From Candidatus Saccharimonadales bacterium (lineage in GTDB: Bacteria; Patescibacteriota; Saccharimonadia; Saccharimonadales; JAYRRP01), in contig JAYRRP010000003.1 of NCBI GenBank assembly GCA_041910055.1, forward strand, positions 45,973 to 109,972: 64,000 nt of DNA, given 5' to 3'. The notes beneath the pieces are model-generated. The model was given only the letters and a program-made list of their open reading frames with translations. It was not told the origin of the DNA and ran no database searches. Positions 11,865 through 19,977 of this stretch are shown in pieces (within the stretch, counting starts at the first letter, position 1; each line of letters begins with the position of its first letter). The translations under genes and the position numbers were made by a program.

Positions 11865-12464
11865 ATGAAAGACCTTTTACTGCTTCTATCAGCGCTTATT
11901 ACAATTGGCGGTGTAGTACCTTATATTCTTGACATTCTTAAGGGCAAAACCAAGCCTAATATTGTCTCTTGGATTACCTGGACGCTTCTTACAGGATTGG
12001 CAACCGCCGCATTGATAGCAGCACATGAATACCGAGCAGCTTTCTTCACGGGAGCTGCAGTGATTGAGACGGCATCGGTTGTAATACTTGGGCTAAGACA
12101 TGGGTACGTTAAGTACACTCAATTTGATGTAATATGCCAAATTGCAGCAGTCGTTGGACTAATCCTGTGGCAGATATTTAACACACCATTCATAGCAGTC
12201 TTCGCTGCCGTAACAATAGATCTCATAGGCGCATTACCTACCTTCAGACACTCCTGGCAAAAACCATTTGAAGAAACTTGGACTACCTATGCTTTATCGG
12301 GTATTGGAGCGTTGGTAGCATTGTTCGCCCTTGTGTCTTACAACTGGACAAGTCTTTCATACCCCGTGTATATAGTTCTTGTAAACATACTTATTACTAC
12401 TACTATCCTCATTGCGAGAAAAGTTAGCTTACAGAAAAACAGTACCCATTCTCGTACAAAATGA
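11865..12464 (+). CDS. Polytopic membrane protein (about 6-7 TM), unknown function
   Basis: 199-aa hydrophobic ORF placed between two terminators. Confidence 0.65.
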   Translation: MKDLLLLLSALITIGGVVPYILDILKGKTKPNIVSWITWTLLTGLATAALIAAHEYRAAFFTGAAVIETASVVILGLRHGYVKYTQFDVICQIAAVVGLILWQIFNTPFIAVFAAVTIDLIGALPTFRHSWQKPFEETWTTYALSGIGALVALFALVSYNWTSLSYPVYIVLVNILITTTILIARKVSLQKNSTHSRTK

Positions 12465-12493
12465 AAAATAGCAACTAAAAGATTGCTGTTTTT
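12464..12493. terminator. Bidirectional A/T-flanked hairpin terminator
   Basis: AAAAATAGCAA-CTAAAAGA-TTGCTGTTTTT. It sits between the 11865 gene and the displaced tRNA-Pro 3' fragment. Confidence 0.6.
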
Positions 12494-12496
12494 CAT

Positions 12497-12514
12497 TGGT
12501 CGGGGTGAGAGGAC
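12497..12514. repeat. att direct repeat, distal copy (TGGTCGGGGTGAGAGGAC)
   Basis: Perfect 18/18 match to 19901-19918, which is the 3' end of tRNA-Pro. Confidence 0.8.
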
Positions 12515-12576
12515 AGCGCTCGGGCTCACGCGCCGTGCTAACCTCCGATGTCGTCGGTTCAATTCTGGTACCATCA

Positions 12577-12612
12577 TGCAAAAAGCTCAGGCTTTGGTCT
12601 GAGCTTTTTGCA
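12577..12612. terminator. 14-bp-stem bidirectional hairpin at the left edge of the element
   Basis: TGCAAAAAGCTCAG-GCTTTGGT-CTGAGCTTTTTGCA. The core is GCTCAG/CTGAGC, flanked by an A-run and a T-run. Confidence 0.55.
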
Positions 12613-12754
12613 TGGTCGGGGGTAACAGATTTTTCTCAAACTTTAGATTTGATAATCCGCCAACGCCAAAACCTTAACATTATGGTAGAACGTCTGACTG
12701 CTGTTAGCAAATATGACGATAAGAAATTATCACTAATAAGTCTATAATGGTGGT

Positions 12755-12961
12755 ATGGGAAATCTGTATGAACAGACACAAACTCTGCAATATATTAAGG
12801 ATATGATTGTTCTAGACCCAGTGGGTAAGCCCTCAGATAGTACTCCATTGGAAGAAAGGCTAAAAAACTACCCCAAAGATCTAAATCCAATAGACAGTCC
12901 TGCGACAGTATTCTGGCACGTAAAAGACAAGCCCCCTAAGGATAAAAGAAGCAAAAAATAA
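12755..12961 (+). CDS. Hypothetical small protein (68 aa), Lys-rich C-terminus
   Basis: ORF preceded by TATAAT (12743-12748) at N6 from the ATG. No recognisable family. Confidence 0.4.
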   Translation: MGNLYEQTQTLQYIKDMIVLDPVGKPSDSTPLEERLKNYPKDLNPIDSPATVFWHVKDKPPKDKRSKK

Positions 12962-13057
12962 CTTAGCGTAAGTTAGCTCAAACTTGTACTAGTGTGGACC
13001 GAAAACAAGACTTGCCTTGTTGCAGAGTTATAAACTATTATTAGTGTACAAACGTTA

Positions 13058-13108
13058 GTGCTTATGCTTGTACCGCTTAAAAGCACCAGAGTGTACAAGC
13101 AAGAGCAC
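13058..13108. repeat. 16-bp imperfect inverted repeat with 19-nt loop
   Basis: GTGCTTATGCTTGTAC ... GTACAAGCAAGAGCAC, with 14 Watson-Crick pairs, one G-U and one mismatch. Intergenic inside the element. Confidence 0.5.
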
Positions 13109-13129
13109 CGAAAAGAAACGACTCCCTAA

Positions 13130-13444
13130 CTATTCACGAGTAGAGGGAGTCTTTTTATATGCGTAAACGAACTTTGTTGTGTGGTCGCCACCACCAGGAC
13201 CGCCGTCAGTGCCAAGTCGTTCAATGAAGAACAGTTCAACATTACGGGCTGCCGTTTGGTTGCCAGCATCACGGTAAATCCAGTAGCCGTTGTCTTTATC
13301 AACGTTGTGGTCAACAAAGAGCCGTTGTTCTGGTGCCGATGCAATGCCAACATACCAATCAGCATAACGGGGATGTCGGAGCTTTATGTGCTCGTCTATA
13401 GCAACCGCAGTCTGCTGTTCAACAGGTGTCAGTGTAATTTGCAT
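13130..13444 (-). CDS. Small protein with weak GIY-YIG-like signature
   Basis: 104 aa. WYVGIASAPEQRLFVDHNV resembles the YIG...RL..H segment of GIY-YIG/T5orf172-type domains. The assignment is tentative. It is divergent from the repressor gene. Confidence 0.55.
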   Translation of the reverse strand: MQITLTPVEQQTAVAIDEHIKLRHPRYADWYVGIASAPEQRLFVDHNVDKDNGYWIYRDAGNQTAARNVELFFIERLGTDGGPGGGDHTTKFVYAYKKTPSTRE

Positions 13445-13568
13445 ATTTGCCTTTCTGATTTTTTACCTTATACCCCCGTACGACCTCTGCTCTCTGGTTT
13501 GCAGTTCGGGTTACTACAAAATATATAGGATTTTAACAGATGAGTCAAGCCAATCAAGACGATTAAGA

Positions 13569-13596
13569 TTGACAACATCATCAAAACGACTATAAT
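13569..13596 (+). promoter_or_regulatory. Near-consensus sigma70 promoter TTGACA-N16-TATAAT of the repressor gene
   Basis: Hexamers read directly, followed by the AGGGGTGA SD and ATG 13607. Confidence 0.65.
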
Positions 13597-13606
13597 TAGG
13601 GGTGAT

Positions 13607-14239
13607 ATGCACGAGCTACAGAGTAAAATACTTGAGCTAGCCGAGAATAACCAGCTTGATGGGATGAACCTTAGGGACATTGGTGATTCTGTTGGTGAAA
13701 ACCACCTACAGAAGGTCAAACATCACCTTAACCAACTACTAGCAAAGAACTTCATTGGCATTGACTCAAATGGTAACTACAGGGTTATTAAAAGTGGTCA
13801 AAATCAGCTTAGGAGCGGGGGCATTATTAGTATTCCTATCTATGGGGCTGCTAATTGTGGTCCCGCCGAAATCTTTGCAGAAGATAACTTAGAGGGTTAC
13901 CTTGAAGTCTCCGAGAAACTAGTAAAATACAGCCAAAGCCTAATAGCACTCAGAGCCGTTGGCGACTCTATGAACCGATCAAACCTTTCAGGCAATGCTA
14001 TTGACGCTGGAGACTACCTTATTATTGACACTGATGACAAGAGACCAAAAGACGGAGACTATGTACTGTCCATATTCAACAATATGGCGAATATAAAAAG
14101 ATTCTTTTTTGATAAGATTACAGGCACAGTTACTTTGGTATCTGAATCAAATAGAGCCATCCCACCAATAGTTGCCGACCCAGATGACGATTATATGGTG
14201 GCTGGTAAAGTGCTAAGAGTAGTTAAATCATACTCTTAG
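13607..14239 (+). CDS. LexA/CI-like repressor: N-terminal winged-helix domain plus C-terminal S24 self-cleaving peptidase
   Basis: S24 Ser motif AVGDSMN, Lys motif ANIKRF, and a candidate cleavage region GAANCGP between the domains. Confidence 0.85.
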   Translation: MHELQSKILELAENNQLDGMNLRDIGDSVGENHLQKVKHHLNQLLAKNFIGIDSNGNYRVIKSGQNQLRSGGIISIPIYGAANCGPAEIFAEDNLEGYLEVSEKLVKYSQSLIALRAVGDSMNRSNLSGNAIDAGDYLIIDTDDKRPKDGDYVLSIFNNMANIKRFFFDKITGTVTLVSESNRAIPPIVADPDDDYMVAGKVLRVVKSYS

Positions 14240-14240
14240 A

Positions 14241-14489
14241 CTAAATGTCTTGCTTTCTTTCCTTGTACATATCGTAGATTAACTTTGCTAGAGCTTCCGC
14301 ATCTTCTTTTCGTTTATCCCTGATCACAAGGTCGTCTAATTGTTTCTTGGTTATTGGCTGGTAGACAGTTTTTACCTGCAATAACAGCATCGTAAGTTTT
14401 TTACGTGCAATCTGATAGTCCAGCTCTTTCCCAAACTTAGATTTGTATAAGTCTTGAAACTTTTTTACGTCTTTTTCGGTTATCTCCAT
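14241..14489 (-). CDS. Hypothetical small helical protein (82 aa), Lys/Glu-rich
   Basis: Its stop lies 1 nt from the repressor stop (convergent). It is divergent from dcm. No family recognised. Confidence 0.5.
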   Translation of the reverse strand: MEITEKDVKKFQDLYKSKFGKELDYQIARKKLTMLLLQVKTVYQPITKKQLDDLVIRDKRKEDAEALAKLIYDMYKERKQDI

Positions 14490-14587
14490 CCGTCAATTCT
14501 GCACTAAATGTACCTATGTTGTAAAATGCTAATGCTGTCTTTTTTACGTCATATTCGTCCGTAAGAATACGCTATACTATAAGCACT

Positions 14588-15640
14588 ATGAGACAACAAC
14601 AATTACTGGACAATACTGCACCATTTGCCCCAAAAAACGGCAAGAAAACTTCGTTTACTTTTATAGACTTATTTGCAGGTATCGGTGGTACACGCCTTGG
14701 TTTTGAATCTGCTGGTGGAAAATGTGTATTTACATCTGAGTGGGACATACACGCACAAAAAACATATCAGGCTAATTTTGGCGATATTCCTCACGGAGAT
14801 ATAACAAAGATAGATGCTAATGATATACCTGACTTTGATGTACTACTCGGAGGTTTCCCTTGTCAGCCATTTAGTTCTATAGGCAAACGGCAGGGTTTTC
14901 AGCATACAACCCAGGGCACATTGTTCCACGACATAGCAAACATAATAGACATTAAAAAGCCGAAAAGTTTTATGCTTGAAAACGTGCCTGGCTTACTAAC
15001 GCACGATGGTGGTAACACGTTCAGGGTGATTTTAGATAGTCTTGATGACCTCGGCTACAAAGTCTGGTATAAGGTATTAGACTCCTCACATTTTGGTGTT
15101 CCTCAGCAAAGAAAACGAATCTACATAGTGGGTTTTAGAAAAGACCTTATTGAGAAGGGGTATGAGTTTGTGCATCCCGTTGGCAAAAACAACAAGGTTT
15201 ATATCAACAAGTTCATTGAGAAAAACGTTGAAGGCTATTCAATCTCAGAACATTTGCAAAAAACCTATATGTACAAGAAGGACGACGGCAGACCAATGCT
15301 GGTTGACCAAAACTCTAAAGTCCACGTTAAAACTCTAGTTTCTACTTATCACAAGATACAGCGACTTACTGGCACATTCGTGAAGGACGGTCCAACGGGG
15401 CTACGGTTATTTACGGTGGATGAGTGCAAGGCGATAATGGGCTTTCCTCCTAACTTTGTAGTGCCTGTTTCAAGAACTCAAATGTACAGACAGTTTGGTA
15501 ATTCCATAGTTGTCCCTGTTGTTGAAGCAGTCGCAAAGGAATTATCTAAAACTCTGAAAGTTATTGAAGCAAATGAAAAAAAGGCTATTAAAGAGATTGA
15601 GAGTATTAAGCCAGTCTTAGCTGACGCATTATCAGCCTAA
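14588..15640 (+). CDS. dcm: DNA (cytosine-5)-methyltransferase
   Basis: Motifs I FAGIGG, IV GFPCQPFS, VI ENVPGL, VIII QQRKR, and X QFGNSIVVPV. Confidence 0.93.
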   Translation: MRQQQLLDNTAPFAPKNGKKTSFTFIDLFAGIGGTRLGFESAGGKCVFTSEWDIHAQKTYQANFGDIPHGDITKIDANDIPDFDVLLGGFPCQPFSSIGKRQGFQHTTQGTLFHDIANIIDIKKPKSFMLENVPGLLTHDGGNTFRVILDSLDDLGYKVWYKVLDSSHFGVPQQRKRIYIVGFRKDLIEKGYEFVHPVGKNNKVYINKFIEKNVEGYSISEHLQKTYMYKKDDGRPMLVDQNSKVHVKTLVSTYHKIQRLTGTFVKDGPTGLRLFTVDECKAIMGFPPNFVVPVSRTQMYRQFGNSIVVPVVEAVAKELSKTLKVIEANEKKAIKEIESIKPVLADALSA

Positions 15641-16212
15641 CTTATATGACCGTCAATGCCGAAACGATCGTAAGTTTCTAGAATCGCCTTACAGAAATCT
15701 ATCATTTCCTTATCGCCTTCCGACTTAGCGTTGGCTTGGAGACGTAAGAACATTTTTTTACCCATTTCTGACTGACCATAGGTTTTTTTCTGGAAATTAT
15801 GCTGTGCACAAAGCGTTTGTCCGTTTTCTATTGTTGCTTTACCGTCATATTCTTTAGGTTTTACGTGGTCAATTTGAAGTTCTACGCCATTCTCTTTACC
15901 CCGCCCACAGATAACACACTTGTAACCATCTCTTTCCAGTATCGCCTGTTTTTGCACAGGTGTGAAATCCTCAAGTTCTCGCTTGATAACGTATTCAGGG
16001 TCATATTTGTAGATACCCTTACCGACCTTTATAAGTAAGCCTTCTTGAGCCATTTTGCGAATTGCACGGTCTGGGTCACGTAGTATTTTGCCAGTTTGTT
16101 TGTTGTATTCTTGAGTTGCCCAATCTACCGCTTTTGAATGGGGTATATTTTGCTTGGGGCGGTCCTTGTAGTATTGCAATATCAGTGTGGCTTGCGAAAT
16201 GTTATTAGTCAT
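15637..16212 (-). CDS. HNH endonuclease, probable cognate restriction enzyme
   Basis: C-terminal CVICG...QIDHVKP...NGQTLCAQHN HNH/zinc motif and an N-terminal winged-helix-like domain. Its 3' end overlaps the dcm 3' end by 4 nt. Confidence 0.82.
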   Translation of the reverse strand: MTNNISQATLILQYYKDRPKQNIPHSKAVDWATQEYNKQTGKILRDPDRAIRKMAQEGLLIKVGKGIYKYDPEYVIKRELEDFTPVQKQAILERDGYKCVICGRGKENGVELQIDHVKPKEYDGKATIENGQTLCAQHNFQKKTYGQSEMGKKMFLRLQANAKSEGDKEMIDFCKAILETYDRFGIDGHIS

Positions 16213-16333
16213 TAGTAAAAAGTATACTTCAACACCTTATATATAAAAATCATCTTGTCAAAAACCGTTAAGAAAATGCAGATTGACACAGGTTTACTAT
16301 TATGGAAATATAATTGAATTAACAGAGGTCATT

Positions 16334-16342
16334 TGCTATAAT
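16334..16342 (+). promoter_or_regulatory. Extended -10 (TGCTATAAT) upstream of the MgsA_C-like gene
   Basis: TGnTATAAT lies about 37 nt upstream of ATG 16379, which has a GGGGG SD. Confidence 0.4.
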
Positions 16343-16378
16343 ATAACTACATTCTTTAACAATTTGGGGGTAAAAATT

Positions 16379-17008
16379 ATGACAAATAATGACACCAAAA
16401 GCACAGCCAAAAAGTCATCATATCGTGGTGGCTATGAGCTAAAAGTAATCGGCGACTATGAGTTTGACGAAGTCAGTTCTGCAATGCAGAAGATGATTCG
16501 CCGAAATCAGGAGTATGAAGCCTGCTGGTGGGCGTACGTGCTACACGATAGCGGTTACTACAAATACGTCTGGCGTAGGTTGATGATAATAGCCTCGGAA
16601 GATATTGGTAACGCTAACCCGATGGCAGCCATAATGGTAAATACCCTCAGACAGAACTATGAAGCCACTATGGACAGTAAGACCAGGTTCGGTGGCAATG
16701 GTGCATTATTCTTGTTTCAAGCCATTATGTACCTCTGTTCCTCCGAAAAGGTACGAGAAGCCGATACCCTAGCTAACTTGGTTATCAAGGAGTTCAAGGA
16801 CGGCAAACGCCTAGAAATACCCGAGGTCGCCGTAGACGTACACACTGCTAGAGGCAAGACTATACACGGTAAGTGGGAACAAGGCACTGACGAGGAAAAG
16901 AAAGAGCGGGCGAAGAAATGGTATGAGATTTGGTCAGCCGTAACCCCAGCTTCAAAAATGCCTGATAAGTATCTTGATAAGTGGAAGAAATTGGAGGGTC
17001 ATCTATGA
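16379..17008 (+). CDS. Stand-alone RarA/MgsA C-terminal-domain (MgsA_C-like) protein, no AAA+ module
   Basis: FDEVSSAMQKMIRR, RRLMIIASEDIGNANP, AIMYLCSSEK and VDVHTARGK align by eye with E. coli RarA YDLISALHKSVRGS, ARRCLAIASEDVGNADP, AIVYLACAPKSN and VPVHLRNAPTK. Start set at the ATG after the SD; the TTG 16283 extension was rejected. Confidence 0.72.
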   Translation: MTNNDTKSTAKKSSYRGGYELKVIGDYEFDEVSSAMQKMIRRNQEYEACWWAYVLHDSGYYKYVWRRLMIIASEDIGNANPMAAIMVNTLRQNYEATMDSKTRFGGNGALFLFQAIMYLCSSEKVREADTLANLVIKEFKDGKRLEIPEVAVDVHTARGKTIHGKWEQGTDEEKKERAKKWYEIWSAVTPASKMPDKYLDKWKKLEGHL

Positions 17009-17898
17009 ACACTCTAGTTAAAGCGACAATTCCTAAAGATTACACGGCCCTCTTTGATAACTTGGACGTAGCCGAAAGTACCAGAGCAGATTATTGTTAC
17101 CGTTTGCCATTATTCGTGTCCTACGTGAACCTGTATGGCTTTGATACAAACACCTATTTACACTATAAGAGGTATCTACGAGCGACTAAATGGTCGGTAT
17201 CAACCAAGAACAAGCATCTAATAGTGGCGAGGGTTTTCCTAAAGGAGATGCACCGCCAGGGCTTACTGCCAACCGACATTACACATAACGTAAAGGCTTT
17301 TAAGCAAAGTAAGAAGCACAAGAAACGTGGCTTGAATGATATTGAGGTCAAGAGACTTACTACTTGGCTTGCCGATCTGCCAGAAACGCCAGAAAGCGAT
17401 AGGCTCAAAGCAATTTTTAGCCTGCTGTTGTTACAGGGTTTACGTCTTATAGAAATATGCAGGCTAGACTTTGAGGACTTAGACTTTGAAAACGATAGAC
17501 TGTTTGTATGGGGTAAAGGCAGAGACGATAAAGAACCAGTCCTGTTAATTCCCCAGACTGTTACGTACCTGCGAGAGTATTTAAGAAGTAATGAAGTAAG
17601 AGACGGTGCGTTATTTAGGAGTAATAGCCATAGCCAAATGGGCAGCAGATTATCTACTCGTGGACTTCGTGAGATTATCTCGGTCATATTCAAGATGTTA
17701 CATATAAACAAGACCGCTCACGGGACACGCCATTATTACACCAGCAAGCTATTAAAACATATGCCTGGGGAGTTACTTGATGTGGCTCAATTCACACGAC
17801 ACCGAAGCATTGAGATGTTGCGTGAATACGATAATCGCAATAAACAGGACTTTGCCCTAGACAAAGTGGTTGCGGCATTTGCAGGTGTCAATTTTTAA
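17005..17898 (+). CDS. Tyrosine recombinase (XerC/D / phage integrase family)
   Basis: Catalytic signature: GLRLIEICRL (Arg), HGTRHYY (HxxR) and RHRSIEMLREY (His...Tyr). ATG 17005 forms an ATGA overlap with the upstream stop. Confidence 0.88.
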   Translation: MNTLVKATIPKDYTALFDNLDVAESTRADYCYRLPLFVSYVNLYGFDTNTYLHYKRYLRATKWSVSTKNKHLIVARVFLKEMHRQGLLPTDITHNVKAFKQSKKHKKRGLNDIEVKRLTTWLADLPETPESDRLKAIFSLLLLQGLRLIEICRLDFEDLDFENDRLFVWGKGRDDKEPVLLIPQTVTYLREYLRSNEVRDGALFRSNSHSQMGSRLSTRGLREIISVIFKMLHINKTAHGTRHYYTSKLLKHMPGELLDVAQFTRHRSIEMLREYDNRNKQDFALDKVVAAFAGVNF

Positions 17899-17915
17899 GC
17901 TAAATGCCCAAACAA

Positions 17916-18099
17916 TTCCCTGCAATTTCCCTAAACAAGTCCTATAAAGGTGCTGTTTTCATACCAGATTGCCCTAATGTTGTCGGATTTACACGCGATA
18001 AAGTTAGGGAAATGATAGGGAGAATATAGGGAACGTCCTAACATAGACCCCCTAACCTAAAAACCAAATAGTCTAGGAAATTGGTAGGCGATTGGTAGG
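17916..18099. repeat. Array of 11-bp-phased short repeats (TAGGGA family and ATTGGTAGG)
   Basis: TTCCCT at 17916 and 17927; CCCTAA at 17972 and 18050; TAGGGA at 18005, 18016 and 18027; ATTGGTAGG at 18080 and 18091. There is a perfect 10-bp inverted pair, ATTTCCCTAA (17925-17934) and TTAGGGAAAT (18004-18013). Confidence 0.65.
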
Positions 18100-18223
18100 A
18101 AATGAGCTAAATTAAACACCCATTTACTGCCAATAACACTAATTACAAGCACTAACATTACACCTTAAATTATTTGAGCCTTTGAACTCTAGCAAACTAT
18201 AATAAACGTAGGAGAACTACAGT

Positions 18224-19912
18224 TTGAGCGATAACAATATAGACCTATTCAAAATTATCCAAAGTCAGGTAGCACCAACTGCACCTAAGGAGATTGACCC
18301 TACGCAGCTTCGTTATGCTATATATGTCCGCAAGTCTACCGAAAGTGAAGAAAGACAAATCCGCTCTATACCAGACCAGATTAGTGATTGTATGGAGCTA
18401 GTAGTTGAGCCAAACGGTATTGTAATCAACCAAAAGACTGACATCTTCAAGGAGGAAAAGTCTGCAAAGGAAGCGGGTACAAGACCTGTATTCCGAGAAC
18501 TAATGAACAAAATTGCTGATGGCAAATACGATGCCCTGATATCGTGGCACTACGATCGCATCGCCAGAAATATGAAAGAAGCGGGTGAGATAATTGACCT
18601 AATAGACCGAGGGCAAATCAAAGACCTTAAACTTGCAAAAGCTACATTTGAAAACACTCCAAATGGCAAGATGATACTCGGTATAAGCTTTGTGCTGTCA
18701 AAGCACTATTCAGACCACCTAAGCGAATCGGTATTGCGAGGTAATAAAAGTAGTACCGAAAAAGGCAGGATACTCGCACACCAAGTACACGGCTACCGTA
18801 TCAGTGAGGATAGAAAGCTAATTGCCGACGACAGCAATTACTTAATTATTGAACACGCTTTTAGAATGAGACTTGAAAATAAGTCATTGAAAGACATAGC
18901 AAAGTACATTAACGATAACGGCTACAGGGTACATAGACCAAGCATAGGACACAGAATTAGTATTTTTGACGAGGATAAAGTCTCTAAACTGCTAAGAAAT
19001 CCAGTTTATGCAGGTGTTAATGTCTATGGTAAGACAGTAGTACGTATGGCAGATATTGACCCAGACTTTACGCCAATGGTTAGTGAAGAAGATTTCGTTG
19101 CCCTTAATGGTAAGGGTAGCTTTTTACCTTACACAATGACAGGTTCAAAGCGAATCGCACCTAACGATGTGTCTGACTTTTTACGACAGTTTATAATATG
19201 CGGACACTGTGGTCGTAAACTGGGTACGAGCGTAACTTCAAAGTATACGACAAATAACGGCGTTAAGAGTAAACAGCCAGTCCACTTCTATTTCCGCTTC
19301 AAGTGCAATAACAAGGTCTGCGAAGCATTTGGCAGTGGTCCGAAAGGCTCACTAATAAAAGATTATGTAGCAGATTTTCTACAATCTCACCTATTTACTA
19401 CCAAAAGCAACTATAAACGATACCTAGAAGATGCTCAGACGTTTCTAGCGACACGAAAGGCAGAACTTACGTCTGCCAATAAAAGTCTAACCATACTACT
19501 AAGCAAGAAACGCCGAGAGTACGATGATGCTAAAACTATTGCTGCCGATAACAATAACCCCCTATCCGTACACTACACGCCAAAGCACCTAGATAAGCTA
19601 AAAAACGAAGTGGACGATTACGACAAGCAGGTGCTGGAGATTCGGAAGGAACTTGAGGACCAAAATACTGCTTTGGTGTCTTATGACGAGTTTCTCAAAC
19701 TTTACGAAAATGCGGCTGAATTACTTCGTACAACCTATGGTATGACGATGGCTGACGAACTTATACGGATTTTCTTCTCAAACTTGACTGTAATAAGCAA
19801 ACCATACGGCAAAAAATTGAAACAAAAACAGTGGTCGGTAACTGACCACTGCCTTAACGAACCGTTTGACGATTTCGTCAAAAACGGTGATTTTCTTGTA
19901 TGGTCGGGGTGA
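18224..19912 (+). CDS. Large serine recombinase
   Basis: Resolvase catalytic segment YVRKSTESE...R, a recombinase domain, the zinc-ribbon CGHCGRKL...C..C, and a C-terminal coiled coil. TTG start with AGGAG SD. The last 4 codons and the stop lie inside the att repeat and tRNA-Pro. Confidence 0.9.
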   Translation: MSDNNIDLFKIIQSQVAPTAPKEIDPTQLRYAIYVRKSTESEERQIRSIPDQISDCMELVVEPNGIVINQKTDIFKEEKSAKEAGTRPVFRELMNKIADGKYDALISWHYDRIARNMKEAGEIIDLIDRGQIKDLKLAKATFENTPNGKMILGISFVLSKHYSDHLSESVLRGNKSSTEKGRILAHQVHGYRISEDRKLIADDSNYLIIEHAFRMRLENKSLKDIAKYINDNGYRVHRPSIGHRISIFDEDKVSKLLRNPVYAGVNVYGKTVVRMADIDPDFTPMVSEEDFVALNGKGSFLPYTMTGSKRIAPNDVSDFLRQFIICGHCGRKLGTSVTSKYTTNNGVKSKQPVHFYFRFKCNNKVCEAFGSGPKGSLIKDYVADFLQSHLFTTKSNYKRYLEDAQTFLATRKAELTSANKSLTILLSKKRREYDDAKTIAADNNNPLSVHYTPKHLDKLKNEVDDYDKQVLEIRKELEDQNTALVSYDEFLKLYENAAELLRTTYGMTMADELIRIFFSNLTVISKPYGKKLKQKQWSVTDHCLNEPFDDFVKNGDFLVWSG

Positions 19913-19918
19913 GAGGAC
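19901..19918. repeat. att direct repeat, tRNA-proximal copy (TGGTCGGGGTGAGAGGAC)
   Basis: Identical to 12497-12514. It corresponds to the tRNA-Pro T-arm 3' strand, acceptor 3' strand, discriminator and CCA. Confidence 0.8.
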
Positions 19919-19977
19919 TTGAACCTCCGACCTCCTGGTCCCAAACCAGGCGCGCTAGCCAACTGCGCCACACCCCG
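19901..19977 (-). tRNA. tRNA-Pro (anticodon UGG)
   Basis: Acceptor CGGGGTG/CACCCCG, D arm GCGC-AGTTGGCTA-GCGC, anticodon stem CCTGG/CCAGG with loop TTTGGGA, T arm GGAGG-TTCAAGT-CCTCT, encoded CCA. Confidence 0.93.

What the first reader, a model, noticed from the sequence alone, without database searches (positions are those of the whole stretch)
12497..19918. 7.4-kb integrated element in tRNA-Pro bounded by a perfect 18-bp direct repeat
- TGGTCGGGGTGAGAGGAC occurs at 12497-12514 and at 19901-19918.
- The right copy is the functional 3' end (T-arm 3' strand, acceptor, CCA) of an intact tRNA-Pro(UGG) on the minus strand.
- The left copy sits directly against the bidirectional terminator that would originally have followed the tRNA.
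- Everything between the copies is mobile or defence cargo: an S24 repressor, a Dcm/HNH pair, an MgsA_C-like protein, a tyrosine recombinase and a serine recombinase. It reads AT-richer than the flanking core genes.
- I can see no capsid, replication-initiator or conjugation genes. It is therefore either a minimal integrative, satellite-like element or a decayed prophage, in a lineage where mobile elements are poorly catalogued.
Basis: partly seen in the sequence, partly recalled or inferred. Interest (0 to 1): 0.78.

Follow-up and report, generated by a model that had tools for sequence, protein, structure and literature searches.

The report
Serine-recombinase island in tRNA-Pro, split integrase
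A 7.3-kb mobile element carrying a restriction-modification system sits in the 3' end of a tRNA-Pro gene of a Saccharibacteria (TM7) genome, and it belongs to a large, apparently undescribed family whose serine integrase gene is cut by its own integration, so the enzyme has a long form on the free circle and a short form in the chromosome.

Summary
The 18-bp repeat, the intact tRNA-Pro(UGG), the cargo and the AT-richness are all confirmed, and a related genome has the empty site.

- **Two tandem insertions.** One is a 98-bp remnant (12515-12612) of a small "mini-element" that occurs on its own next to tRNA-Pro in other Saccharibacteria. It ends in the displaced 18-nt tRNA end, so it is the source of the perfect repeat. 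The other is a 7,288-bp element (12622-19909) moved by the large serine recombinase (LSR).
- **The real attachment core is short.** It is ATGGTCGGGG (12612-12621 and 19900-19909). Comparison with four other complete relatives places the crossover within TGGTCG, the tRNA's terminal CGACCA.
- **attP lies inside the LSR gene.** In the chromosome the ORF stops at a TGA inside the antisense tRNA (562 aa). Rejoining the ends adds 41 conserved codons encoded at the other end of the element (603 aa; pN/pS 0.16-0.27). Natural unintegrated relatives, including a closed 5,637-bp circle, carry the uninterrupted long gene.
- **The site is a hotspot.** 10 of 57 related loci have such an LSR ending in this tRNA.

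I rate it a new variant of a known kind. What the two enzyme forms do differently is inferred, not shown.

The parts
12461..12496 (.). Chromosomal bidirectional terminator hairpin that originally followed tRNA-Pro. It overlaps the stop codon of the 199-aa membrane-protein gene (11865-12464).
   Evidence: Sequence. The equivalent arrangement (tRNA, terminator, membrane gene) is seen in the empty-site relative L008.
12497..12514 (-). Displaced 18-nt copy of the tRNA-Pro 3' end (from the T-loop to CCA). It is the outer end of the mini-element remnant and is not an att site of the LSR element.
   Evidence: Relatives L083 and L095 carry the same LSR backbone but have no such 18-mer.
12515..12612 (-). 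Short version of the tRNA-Pro-linked mini-element. It contains a partial copy of the T-arm 5' strand (TCGGAGGTT, 12544-12552) and a perfect 16-bp hairpin terminator (12575-12614).
   Evidence: (I12). Full-length homologues stand alone next to tRNA-Pro in L013, L015, L016, L030, L077, L006 and L064. No Rfam family matches.
12612..12621 (.). attL core of the LSR element (ATGGTCGGGG). The crossover is inferred to lie within TGGTCG (12613-12618).
   Evidence: (D1). The occupied/empty pair L007/L006 breaks at CGACCA. Homology between L094 and L096 ends at the same hexamer.
12613..12747 (+). Detached 3' segment of the LSR gene (the 'tail'): WSG|VTDFSQTLDLIIRQRQNLNIMVERLTAVSKYDDKKLSLISL*. It is in frame with the LSR only after circularisation. 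The same DNA serves as the P arm of attP.
   Evidence: Translation. L083, L090 and L095 have the same length and a conserved peptide, with pN/pS 0.16-0.27. Natural uninterrupted long ORFs occur in L092/L093 and L094. Tails also sit at attL in L096, L050 and L007.
12755..12961 (+). Backbone gene o68 (68 aa, no family hit). It is the first gene after the tail and is present in all four complete close relatives. It is a candidate regulator or directionality factor (inferred).
13130..13444 (-). 104-aa ORF of unknown function, transcribed divergently from the S24 gene (cargo).
13607..14239 (+). LexA/CI-like S24 peptidase repressor (cargo) with a consensus promoter at 13569-13596.
   Evidence: Pfam PF00717, 2.8e-16. 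PHROG transcriptional repressor. Promoter.
14241..14489 (-). 82-aa ORF of unknown function, 72% identical to an ORF in L083.
14588..15640 (+). C5-cytosine DNA methyltransferase, the methylase of a type II restriction-modification system (cargo).
   Evidence: Pfam PF00145, 3.7e-99. PADLOC MTase_II.
15637..16212 (-). HNH nuclease convergent with the methylase, the probable restriction partner (cargo).
   Evidence: Pfam HNH, 9e-08. Weak PADLOC REase_II hit.
16379..17008 (+). MgsA/RarA C-terminal-domain protein. The start is probably ATG 16379, giving the 208-209 aa seen in homologues. It is part of an optional module present in the window, L004, L083, L089 and L095 and absent in L090.
   Evidence: Pfam PF12002, 3.9e-14..
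17005..17898 (+). Xer-like tyrosine recombinase (297 aa from ATG 17005). It is part of the optional module and is not the integrase of this element. A role in resolving multimers of the circle is inferred.
   Evidence: Pfam PF00589. NCBIfam XerA/XerC/XerD-like, below the curated cut-offs. Absent from L090, which has identical ends.
17907..18107 (.). Iteron-like array of TAGG(G/A/C)RA motifs. Two triplets are phased at 11 bp (18005/16/27 and 18074/85/96), with inverted copies at 17907-17977. It lies upstream of the LSR promoter (18174-18203).
   Evidence: The density is 6 per 250 nt, against at most 2 elsewhere in the window.
18224..19912 (+). Large serine recombinase, integrated (short) form of 562 aa. 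The ORF runs across attR and stops at a TGA inside the antisense tRNA.
   Evidence: Pfam Resolvase plus Recombinase.. Catalytic R/S/D-R-x-x-R residues and four Cys are invariant in 25 homologues. The AF2 model of relative P0064 matches SPbeta, phiC31, LI and Bxb1 integrases.
19825..19855 (-). Terminator-like hairpin for the tRNA, embedded antisense in the LSR coding sequence.
19900..19909 (.). attR core (ATGGTCGGGG), covering the last 9 nt of the tRNA plus 1 nt.
19901..19977 (-). Intact tRNA-Pro(UGG), the integration target.

Best explanation
Window 12497-19918 holds two successive insertions at the 3' end of tRNA-Pro(UGG) in a Saccharibacteria chromosome.

1. The older one is a 98-bp remnant of a 'mini-element'. 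It pushed the original last 18 nt of the tRNA to 12497-12514 and supplied a new terminator.

2. Later, a 7,288-bp circular cargo element integrated between the tRNA and that remnant. Its large serine recombinase (LSR) recombined an attP site with the terminal CGACCA of the tRNA. This leaves a 10-bp core repeat at 12612-12621 and 19900-19909 and an unchanged tRNA.

The attP site lies about 42 codons before the end of the LSR gene itself. The free circle therefore encodes a 603-aa enzyme. Integration moves the last 41 codons to the far end of the element, and the chromosomal copy ends at a stop codon supplied by the antisense tRNA (562 aa).

The element carries a type II restriction-modification pair, a LexA-like repressor, small unknown ORFs and an optional module of a Xer-like recombinase, an MgsA_C protein and iteron-like repeats.

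Shown here: the boundaries, the family, the empty sites, the split ORF and its conservation, and natural circular or unintegrated forms in relatives.

Inferred: that the long form performs integration, and that the short form is a down-regulated or excision-dedicated form that stabilises or controls the integrated state. This is by analogy with Mx8 IntP/IntX.
For: Boundaries and empty sites:
- The left end of the element, from 12622 (GTAACAGATTTTTCTCAAACTTTAGATTTGATAAT...), is conserved in L083, L090 and L095. In each it is directly preceded by a short tRNA-end copy and a host terminator. The repeats are 10, 9, 7 and 9 bp, with TGGTCG in common.
- L008 lacks both insertions and has the same flanking gene.
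- L006 versus L007 is an empty/occupied pair for an LSR element, and it breaks at CGACCA.

The LSR is the integrase:
- 10 of 57 related loci have an ORF of at least 400 aa ending in or reading through this tRNA. 12 loci have LSR hits next to it.
- Nearly all of the 120 best homologues end in the translation of antisense tRNA-Pro (WSG*, GRG*, GRGERT...).
- L090 has the same ends and no tyrosine recombinase.

The split gene:
- The rejoined ORFs are 603, 602, 611 and about 603 aa, with a 44-codon segment of identical length. pN/pS is 0.16-0.27 for the tail and 0.10-0.21 for the LSR body.
- L092 and L093 are exact rotations of one 5,637-bp circle with 30-nt terminal overlaps. The circle encodes an uninterrupted 593-aa LSR with TGGTCG inside the ORF.
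- The LSR (P0111) of the unintegrated contig L094 is 90.7% identical in protein to that (P0088) of the integrated L096. Their nucleotide homology ends exactly at the core, and the L096 tail sits at its attL in the correct frame.

LSR identity:
- Pfam domains, invariant catalytic and zinc-binding residues, and a predicted fold that matches solved serine integrases.

Foreign composition.
Against: - No circular or attP junction was found for the window's own sub-clade. The window's long form is a reconstruction.
- No sequencing reads are available, so excision in this organism is untested.
- The tail DNA is also under nucleotide-level constraint. Its pS is 0.21-0.58, against about 0.7 in the LSR body. 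Part of its conservation may therefore reflect its role as an attP arm or promoter.
- In L050 the LSR frame and the tail frame differ by 1 nt. This could be a homopolymer error in a nanopore MAG or a real frameshift.
- The C-terminus of the short form depends on the host tRNA (0 to about 35 extra residues). The short form may therefore simply be tolerated rather than being a regulated form.
- The origin of the mini-element, and so the exact history of the 18-bp repeat, remains unexplained.
Confidence: 0.85

Rival explanations
1. A single 7.4-kb element is bounded by the 18-bp repeat and was integrated by the tyrosine recombinase with a crossover in the T-loop, as in classical tRNA-targeting islands.
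For: - An 18-nt repeat running from the T-loop to CCA is the typical signature of tyrosine integrases that cross over in the T-loop (established knowledge; the sublocation classes are summarised in PMC4383910).
- An apparently intact Xer-like tyrosine recombinase is present.
- The empty-site relative L008 lacks everything between the two 18-mers.
Against: - L083, L095 and L089 carry the same tyrosine recombinase (80-84% identity). L083 and L095, whose far ends are visible, have only a 9-bp repeat and no 18-mer.
- L090 lacks the tyrosine recombinase but has the same conserved ends.
- The 18-mer plus its adjacent segment occurs without any recombinase or cargo in L013, L016, L077 and others.
- The conserved element sequence starts at 12622, not 12515.
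Confidence: 0.07
2. A decayed prophage or phage satellite, in which the recombinases are relics and the element is no longer mobile.
For: - An S24 CI/LexA-like repressor with a consensus promoter is present.
- The recombinases hit PHROG integrase families.
- No free form of this exact element was found.
Against: - No structural, packaging, lysis or replication gene was found in any library.
- No LSR relative was found in IMG/VR.
- Five complete relatives of 4.8-9.2 kb share only the LSR and its tail, and the four closest also share o68. Their cargo is entirely different: other restriction-modification systems, dehydrogenases, kinases and lipases.
- All ORFs are intact and the LSR is under purifying selection.
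- A relative exists as a 5.6-kb closed circle.
Confidence: 0.05
3. The 'tail' is not part of the recombinase. The 12613-12747 segment is conserved only as the DNA-binding arm of attP and the promoter region of o68, and the open frame across the joint is incidental.
For: - Synonymous divergence in the tail (pS 0.21-0.58) is lower than in the LSR body (about 0.7). This shows DNA-level constraint.
- The AF2 confidence for the tail of P0064 is low.
- In the integrated copies the LSR tolerates arbitrary C-termini derived from the tRNA.
Against: - The frame is open, has identical length (44 codons) and ends at the same stop in four elements. Replacement changes are 4-6 times rarer than silent ones.
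- A tail of the same size, with a similar motif (L-[ED]-L-[FI]...II...) and in the matching frame, occurs in a sub-clade only about 40% identical (L092, L094, L096).
- Gene callers found the uninterrupted 592-593-aa ORFs on unintegrated contigs.
Confidence: 0.1

Closest known systems
Phage-type large serine integrases (phiC31, Bxb1, TP901-1, Listeria A118/LI, SPbeta SprA)
   Same: - Resolvase plus Recombinase plus zinc-ribbon/coiled-coil architecture.
- Invariant catalytic Ser/Arg and Cys residues, and a predicted fold that matches their solved structures.
- A short identity core between the att sites, with the integrase gene at the very end of the element.
   Different: - The target is the 3' terminus of a tRNA gene. 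This was reported as unknown or unproven for serine integrases (PMC4383910; PMC7192596 found 14 of 297 predicted cases).
- attP lies inside the integrase ORF.
- The element is a 5-9-kb cargo island with no phage genes.
Mx8 IntP/attP (Myxococcus phage), SSV-type archaeal integrases and RAP44-like Riemerella phages
   Same: The integrase ORF extends across attP, so integration remodels or splits the integrase gene (cited in PMC4383910; PMC12169736). In Mx8 the C-terminus changes on integration, as it does here.
   Different: Those are tyrosine recombinases. Here the enzyme is a serine recombinase, the replacement C-terminus comes from the antisense strand of a tRNA, and the trait is shared by hundreds of homologues.
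SCCmec-type cassettes moved by CcrAB/CcrC
   Same: - An island with no phage or conjugation genes, moved by large serine recombinases (weak NCBIfam Ccr hits).
- Integration at the 3' end of a conserved housekeeping gene without inactivating it.
- Variable cargo and tandem or composite arrays with extra repeat copies (own knowledge).
   Different: - A single recombinase rather than two.
- A tRNA target rather than rlmH.
- A much smaller element.
- The att site lies inside the recombinase gene.
Tycheposons of Prochlorococcus
   Same: - Small cargo-carrying integrative elements at a few tRNA genes (including tRNA-Pro-UGG) in a streamlined genome.
- Tandem accumulation, with partial tRNA copies and degenerate remnants next to the tRNA (10.1101/2020.12.28.424599).
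   Different: - Tycheposons use a dedicated tyrosine-recombinase clade and usually carry replication modules.
- The host phylum is different.
CIME/ICE accretion (cis-mobilisable remnants flanked by att sites, Streptococcus thermophilus)
   Same: The layout has three repeats: outer att copy, small gene-less remnant, internal att copy, intact element, target gene (own knowledge).
   Different: Here the outer repeat (18 bp, starting in the T-loop) and the inner repeat (10 bp, at the terminus) have different extents. The remnant was therefore probably made by a different recombination system, and the LSR has no evident means of mobilising it.

Membership tests
Large serine recombinase (serine integrase) | N-terminal resolvase catalytic domain with the nucleophilic Ser and the conserved Arg residues | tested here: met
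   PF00239, 2.6e-20, residues 32-182. The Y-x-R-K-S-T and D-R-x-x-R motifs are invariant in 25 homologues.
Large serine recombinase (serine integrase) | Recombinase domain followed by a zinc ribbon with an embedded coiled coil | tested here: met
   PF07508, 2.5e-13. Four Cys are invariant. The AF2 model of relative P0064 has long helices at 392-475. Foldseek gives probability 1.00 to the SPbeta, phiC31, LI and Bxb1 integrases.
Large serine recombinase (serine integrase) | Recombination at a short crossover within otherwise dissimilar attP and attB sites | tested here: met
   In five complete elements the identity between attL and attR is only 6-10 bp, and the arms are dissimilar. The exact central dinucleotide was not determined.
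Large serine recombinase (serine integrase) | Catalytic activity and control of direction by a directionality factor | not testable with these tools
   No directionality factor was identified. o68 (12755-12961) is only a positional candidate.
Integrative genetic element (attL, attR, integrase, sporadic occurrence) | An uninterrupted target site in related genomes | tested here: met
   L008 is empty for both insertions. L006 is empty relative to L007. 47 of 57 related loci have no LSR at this tRNA.
Integrative genetic element (attL, attR, integrase, sporadic occurrence) | Existence of an excised circular form with attP | tested here: inconclusive
   A closed 5,637-bp circle was found for a relative with a 42%-identical LSR (L092/L093), and an unintegrated contig whose LSR is 90.7% identical to that of an integrated element (L094/L096). 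None was found for the window's own element.
Tyrosine-integrase tRNA island (T-loop class) | The direct repeat from the T-loop to the 3' end marks the ends of the element that carries the tyrosine integrase | tested here: not met
   The 18-bp repeat is absent from L083 and L095, which carry the same tyrosine recombinase. It is present next to tRNA-Pro in genomes with no recombinase.
Prophage or phage satellite | Capsid, terminase, portal or other packaging or helper-exploitation genes | tested here: not met
   There are no such hits in Pfam, PHROGs or NCBIfam, and no relatives in IMG/VR.
Integrative conjugative or mobilisable element | Relaxase, coupling protein or type IV secretion genes, or an oriT | tested here: not met
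   No such family was found among the ORFs of the window's element or in the gene tables of L083, L090, L095 and L096. An oriT cannot be assessed.
Integrases whose ORF spans attP (Mx8, SSV type) | The integrase reading frame is continuous across attP and is interrupted or altered by integration | tested here: met
   The enzyme family differs (serine, not tyrosine), so this is a resemblance in mechanism and not homology.

The most novel reading that the evidence does not exclude
A large clade of Saccharibacteria/CPR serine integrases is dedicated to tRNA 3' termini and uses self-splitting of the integrase gene as a built-in state sensor. The circle makes a long enzyme that can integrate. The chromosome makes a tail-less enzyme whose activity or direction is changed. 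The decision to integrate or excise would then be coupled to the element's own topology, without a classical repressor/excisionase switch.

The same enzymes would be ready-made site-specific integration tools for Saccharibacteria, which are hard to manipulate genetically, because the attB site is a conserved tRNA-Pro end.
Probability: 0.35. Interest if true: 0.78.

Novelty: new variant of a known kind. Interest (0 to 1): 0.62.

Why it matters
- **Mobile elements in Saccharibacteria.** Mobile elements of Saccharibacteria and other ultra-small bacteria are barely catalogued. This finding defines a widespread family: 711 homologues at E <= 1e-20, and about one in six related genomes occupied at this site. 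The family moves restriction-modification systems and metabolic genes into streamlined genomes.
- **Target choice of serine integrases.** Serine integrases were thought not to use tRNA genes. This clade does so systematically, which bears on the long-standing question of why integrases prefer tRNA targets.
- **Topology-dependent enzyme forms.** An attP site inside the integrase gene gives two forms of the enzyme depending on whether the element is free or integrated. That is directly testable as a control of recombination direction.
- **Annotation practice.** A perfect tRNA-derived direct repeat can be a bystander left by an older event, and not the boundary of the neighbouring island.

Tried and rejected
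- **Exact-protein look-up of the left flanking gene.** Not on record.
- **Right flanking gene.** It gave only one 9-kb contig, which ends inside the tRNA. That was uninformative about population heterogeneity.
- **LSR scan of metagenome contigs.** One distant locus, at tRNA-Gly.
- **LSR scan of IMG/VR.** Nothing.
- **Degenerate attP pattern in IMG/VR.** Nothing.
- **Searches for natural long forms in the window's sub-clade.** The junction peptide found only one attL ORF (P0122) and two truncated fragments. The 44-aa tail against 1.84 billion cluster representatives found only P0122 plus repetitive false hits. Long forms would be hidden inside 50% clusters, so this search is inconclusive.
- **Rfam on the mini-element.** No family.
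- **Mini-element as a structured RNA.** RNAalifold on 4 and 6 copies supports one stem, but the covariation term is about zero, so this is not established.
- **Mini-element as a leftover of the LSR element or its coding end.** Rejected: there is no sequence similarity, and it occurs alone.
- **Tyrosine recombinase as the maker of the 18-bp repeat.** Rejected on distribution.
- **phmmer of P0064 against the PDB.** Nothing. A profile was needed.
- **Literature.** I found no report of serine recombinases in Saccharibacteria/Patescibacteria, or of a serine integrase whose attP lies in its own ORF. The searchable library is incomplete, so absence is not proof.

Full report
**Observation.** The 18-mer TGGTCGGGGTGAGAGGAC occurs only at 12497-12514 and 19901-19918. 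No other copy appears with up to 2 mismatches, and none is expected by chance. The right copy is the 3' end of an intact tRNA-Pro(UGG) on the minus strand, 19901-19977. The left copy abuts a hairpin terminator (12461-12496) that overlaps the stop codon of a 199-aa membrane-protein gene.

Between the copies lie:
- a LexA/CI-like S24 protein;
- an m5C methylase convergent with an HNH nuclease;
- an MgsA_C-domain protein;
- a Xer-like tyrosine recombinase;
- a 562-aa large serine recombinase (LSR);
- three small ORFs with no family hit.

The interval is compositionally foreign. GC is 0.408, against 0.435-0.468 in 43 background windows of equal size. Tetranucleotide distance is 0.244, against 0.105 +/- 0.008.

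Two things were missed. A third, shorter copy (ATGGTCGGGG, 12612-12621) lies next to a perfect 16-bp hairpin. The LSR stop codon (TGA, 19910-19912) lies inside the tRNA and the repeat.

**Host and empty site.** The neighbouring RNase Y gene retrieved 80 loci, nearly all from Saccharibacteria (TM7) genomes. In L008, tRNA-Pro is followed directly by a bidirectional terminator and the orthologue of the 199-aa membrane protein (84% aa and 77% nt identity). Nothing lies in between.

**The site is a hotspot for serine recombinases.** Twelve of the 80 loci have an LSR homologue lying convergent with, and immediately next to, the 3' end of tRNA-Pro(UGG). In 10 of the 57 loci with enough downstream sequence, an ORF of at least 400 aa ends inside or reads through the antisense tRNA. 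The protein database holds 711 homologues at E <= 1e-20. Nearly all of the best 120 end in the translation of antisense tRNA-Pro: WSG*, GRG*, GRGERT* or GRGERTQTFDLSVPNRARYQLRHTP... A few end in other tRNAs, and one relative overlaps tRNA-Gly(GCC).

**True boundaries.** Four other complete relatives were recovered: L083, L090, L095 and L096.
- In L083, L090 and L095 the sequence that begins at window 12622 (GTAACAGATTTTTCTCAAACTTTAGATTTGATAAT...) is conserved. It is directly preceded by a short copy of the tRNA end and a host terminator.
- Core-to-core sizes are 7,288 bp (window), 9,208 bp, 6,599 bp and 7,604 bp. The repeats are 10, 9, 7 and 9 bp, and all share TGGTCG.
- L083 and L095 have no 18-mer.
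- L006 and L007 form an empty/occupied pair whose breakpoint is CGACCA.
- L090 has the same ends and an 84%-identical LSR but no tyrosine recombinase and no MgsA_C gene.

So the LSR is the integrase, and the element proper is 12622-19909. The crossover falls in the last six nucleotides of the tRNA, which is why the tRNA is unchanged.

**Origin of the 18-bp repeat.** In L013, L015, L016, L030, L077, L006 and L064, tRNA-Pro is followed by:
- a terminator;
- a hairpin-rich segment of about 130-240 nt;
- a species-specific copy of the tRNA's last 18-20 nt, decayed in some genomes.

No recombinase is nearby. Window 12515-12612 is a short version of this mini-element. In the window, L090 and L007 the LSR element lies between the tRNA and the mini-element. 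The perfect 18-bp repeat is therefore a bystander from an older event.

The mini-element also contains a direct copy and an inverted copy of the T-stem 5' strand, and both track the host tRNA sequence. It has no Rfam match and weak support for a conserved RNA fold. It is patchily distributed on an RNase Y tree. I could not explain it. It may be a remnant of an element that crossed over in the T-loop, or it may be a functional structured site.

**The integrase gene is split by integration.**
- Reading from the LSR across the core into 12622 continues the frame for 41 more codons...GDFLVWSG|VTDFSQTLDLIIRQRQNLNIMVERLTAVSKYDDKKLSLISL*. This gives 603 aa.
- The same holds for L083, L090 and L095. 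The segment has identical length in all of them.
- Replacement changes are 4-6 times rarer than silent ones. pN/pS is 0.16-0.27 in the tail, comparable with 0.10-0.21 in the LSR body.
- The lower pS of the tail (0.21-0.58, against about 0.7) shows that the DNA is also constrained, as expected for an attP arm.

Natural uninterrupted versions exist.
- L092 and L093, from two samples, are exact rotations of one 5,637-bp circle with 30-nt terminal overlaps. The circle encodes a 593-aa LSR with TGGTCG 45 codons before its stop.
- The LSR of the unintegrated contig L094 (592 aa) is 90.7% identical in protein to the LSR of L096, which is integrated at tRNA-Pro. Their nucleotide homology stops exactly at TGGTCG. 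The L096 tail lies at its attL, in the matching frame.
- Tail-like peptides also lie at attL in L050 and L007. L050 shows a 1-nt frame discrepancy next to an A5 run in a nanopore assembly.
- An AF2 model of the long form has the LSR fold. Foldseek gives probability 1.00 to the SPbeta, phiC31, LI and Bxb1 integrases. The tail is predicted as two helices with low confidence.

**Backbone and cargo.**
- The four closest complete elements share only the tail, the 66-68-aa gene that follows it (o68) and the LSR.
- An optional module is present in the window, L004, L083, L089 and L095 and absent in L090. It comprises the MgsA_C protein, the Xer-like recombinase and an array of TAGGNRA repeats phased at 11 bp (18005-18102, with inverted copies at 17907-17977). 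I take this to be a maintenance or resolution cassette for the circular form. That is an inference.
- Cargo differs completely between relatives: Dam-type methylases with a putative nuclease; a dehydrogenase, a hydrolase and an APH-type kinase; or an SDR, a lipase and a methyltransferase.
- No phage, conjugation or replication-initiator family was detected.

**Mechanism.**
- Shown: site-specific insertion at the terminal CGACCA of tRNA-Pro; short core repeats; a recombinase ORF that spans attP; and long forms on free molecules with short forms in chromosomes.
- Inferred: the long form catalyses integration. The chromosomal form lacks the tail and carries a host-dependent C-terminus, and it is attenuated or acts only in excision. 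The analogy is Mx8, where integration alters the IntP C-terminus (Tojo et al. 1996, cited in PMC4383910).
- Alternatively the tail may affect stability or expression. On the circle the LSR, the tail and o68 are co-directional and contiguous, so integration also uncouples o68 from LSR transcription.

**Comparison with what is known.**
- The Islander paper states that only tyrosine integrases are known to target tRNA genes (PMC4383910).
- The TIGER survey found 14 of 297 serine-integrase elements at t(m)RNA genes. It called this previously unreported and in need of proof (PMC7192596).
- Integrase ORFs that cross attP are known for tyrosine recombinases: Mx8, SSV and the RAP44-like phages.
- I found no report of either feature for a serine integrase, and none of serine recombinases in Saccharibacteria. 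The searchable library is incomplete.
- Functionally, the closest analogues are SCC cassettes (islands moved by serine recombinases at the 3' end of a housekeeping gene) and the tycheposons of Prochlorococcus.

**Verdict.** The island call is right. The proposed boundaries and the implied integrase are wrong. The interesting content is the LSR family, with its tRNA-terminus specificity and its self-splitting gene. I rate it a new variant of a known kind, with interest 0.62.

Noticed in passing
window 12515-12612; L013:14526-14670; L015:4597-4728; L030:13720-13860; L077:13979-14116; L006:12490-12614; L007:13591-13683: A conserved, unannotated 'mini-element' lies downstream of tRNA-Pro(UGG). It consists of a terminator, an inverted copy and a direct copy of the host-specific T-stem 5' strand, a hairpin-rich insert exactly at the T-loop position, and then the last 18-20 nt of the tRNA. 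It has no Rfam hit and a patchy distribution, and its origin is unexplained.
   Followed up: partly
window 17907-18107: An iteron-like array of TAGG(G/A/C)RA motifs lies between the Xer-like recombinase and the LSR promoter. Two triplets are phased at exactly 11 bp, with inverted copies upstream. The array is conserved in L083, L089 and L004. It is absent from L090, which also lacks the MgsA_C and tyrosine-recombinase genes.
   Followed up: partly
window 19825-19855 (minus strand): A terminator-like hairpin of 12 pairs followed by a T-run lies 45-75 nt downstream of the tRNA 3' end. It sits inside the LSR coding sequence on the opposite strand, where the LSR encodes the conserved KQKQWSVTDHC motif. 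The element appears to supply the tRNA's new terminator from within its integrase gene.
   Followed up: no
L092 and L093 (Logan SRR26786778 and SRR26786779): Two 5,667-bp contigs from different runs are exact rotations of one 5,637-bp circle. The circle carries a full-length LSR plus membrane or secreted proteins (DUF5681, DUF3761) and has no recognisable replication gene.
   Followed up: partly
L082:4486-4562; proteins P0012, P0043, P0047: Members of the same LSR clade end in other tRNA genes (tRNA-Gly-GCC in L082; other antisense tRNA translations in the three proteins). Target switching between tRNAs has therefore occurred within the clade.
   Followed up: no
L050 (OY970327.1), rc coordinates 2308 and 7554: A 5.25-kb element has a tail-like peptide at attL in the GR frame, but its LSR reads the core one nucleotide out of frame, just after an A5 run. 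This is either a nanopore homopolymer error or a real frameshift.
   Followed up: partly
window 13520-13629: A perfect sigma-70 consensus promoter (TTGACA, 16 nt, TATAAT; 13569-13596) precedes the S24/LexA-like gene. It faces divergent promoter-like sites for the 104-aa ORF. This is a compact, switch-like regulatory region within the cargo.
   Followed up: no
L001 (Logan SRR26835473), end of contig: A contig with flanking genes identical to the window's right flank stops inside tRNA-Pro, at about window 19951. I did not work out why the assembly breaks there.
   Followed up: no
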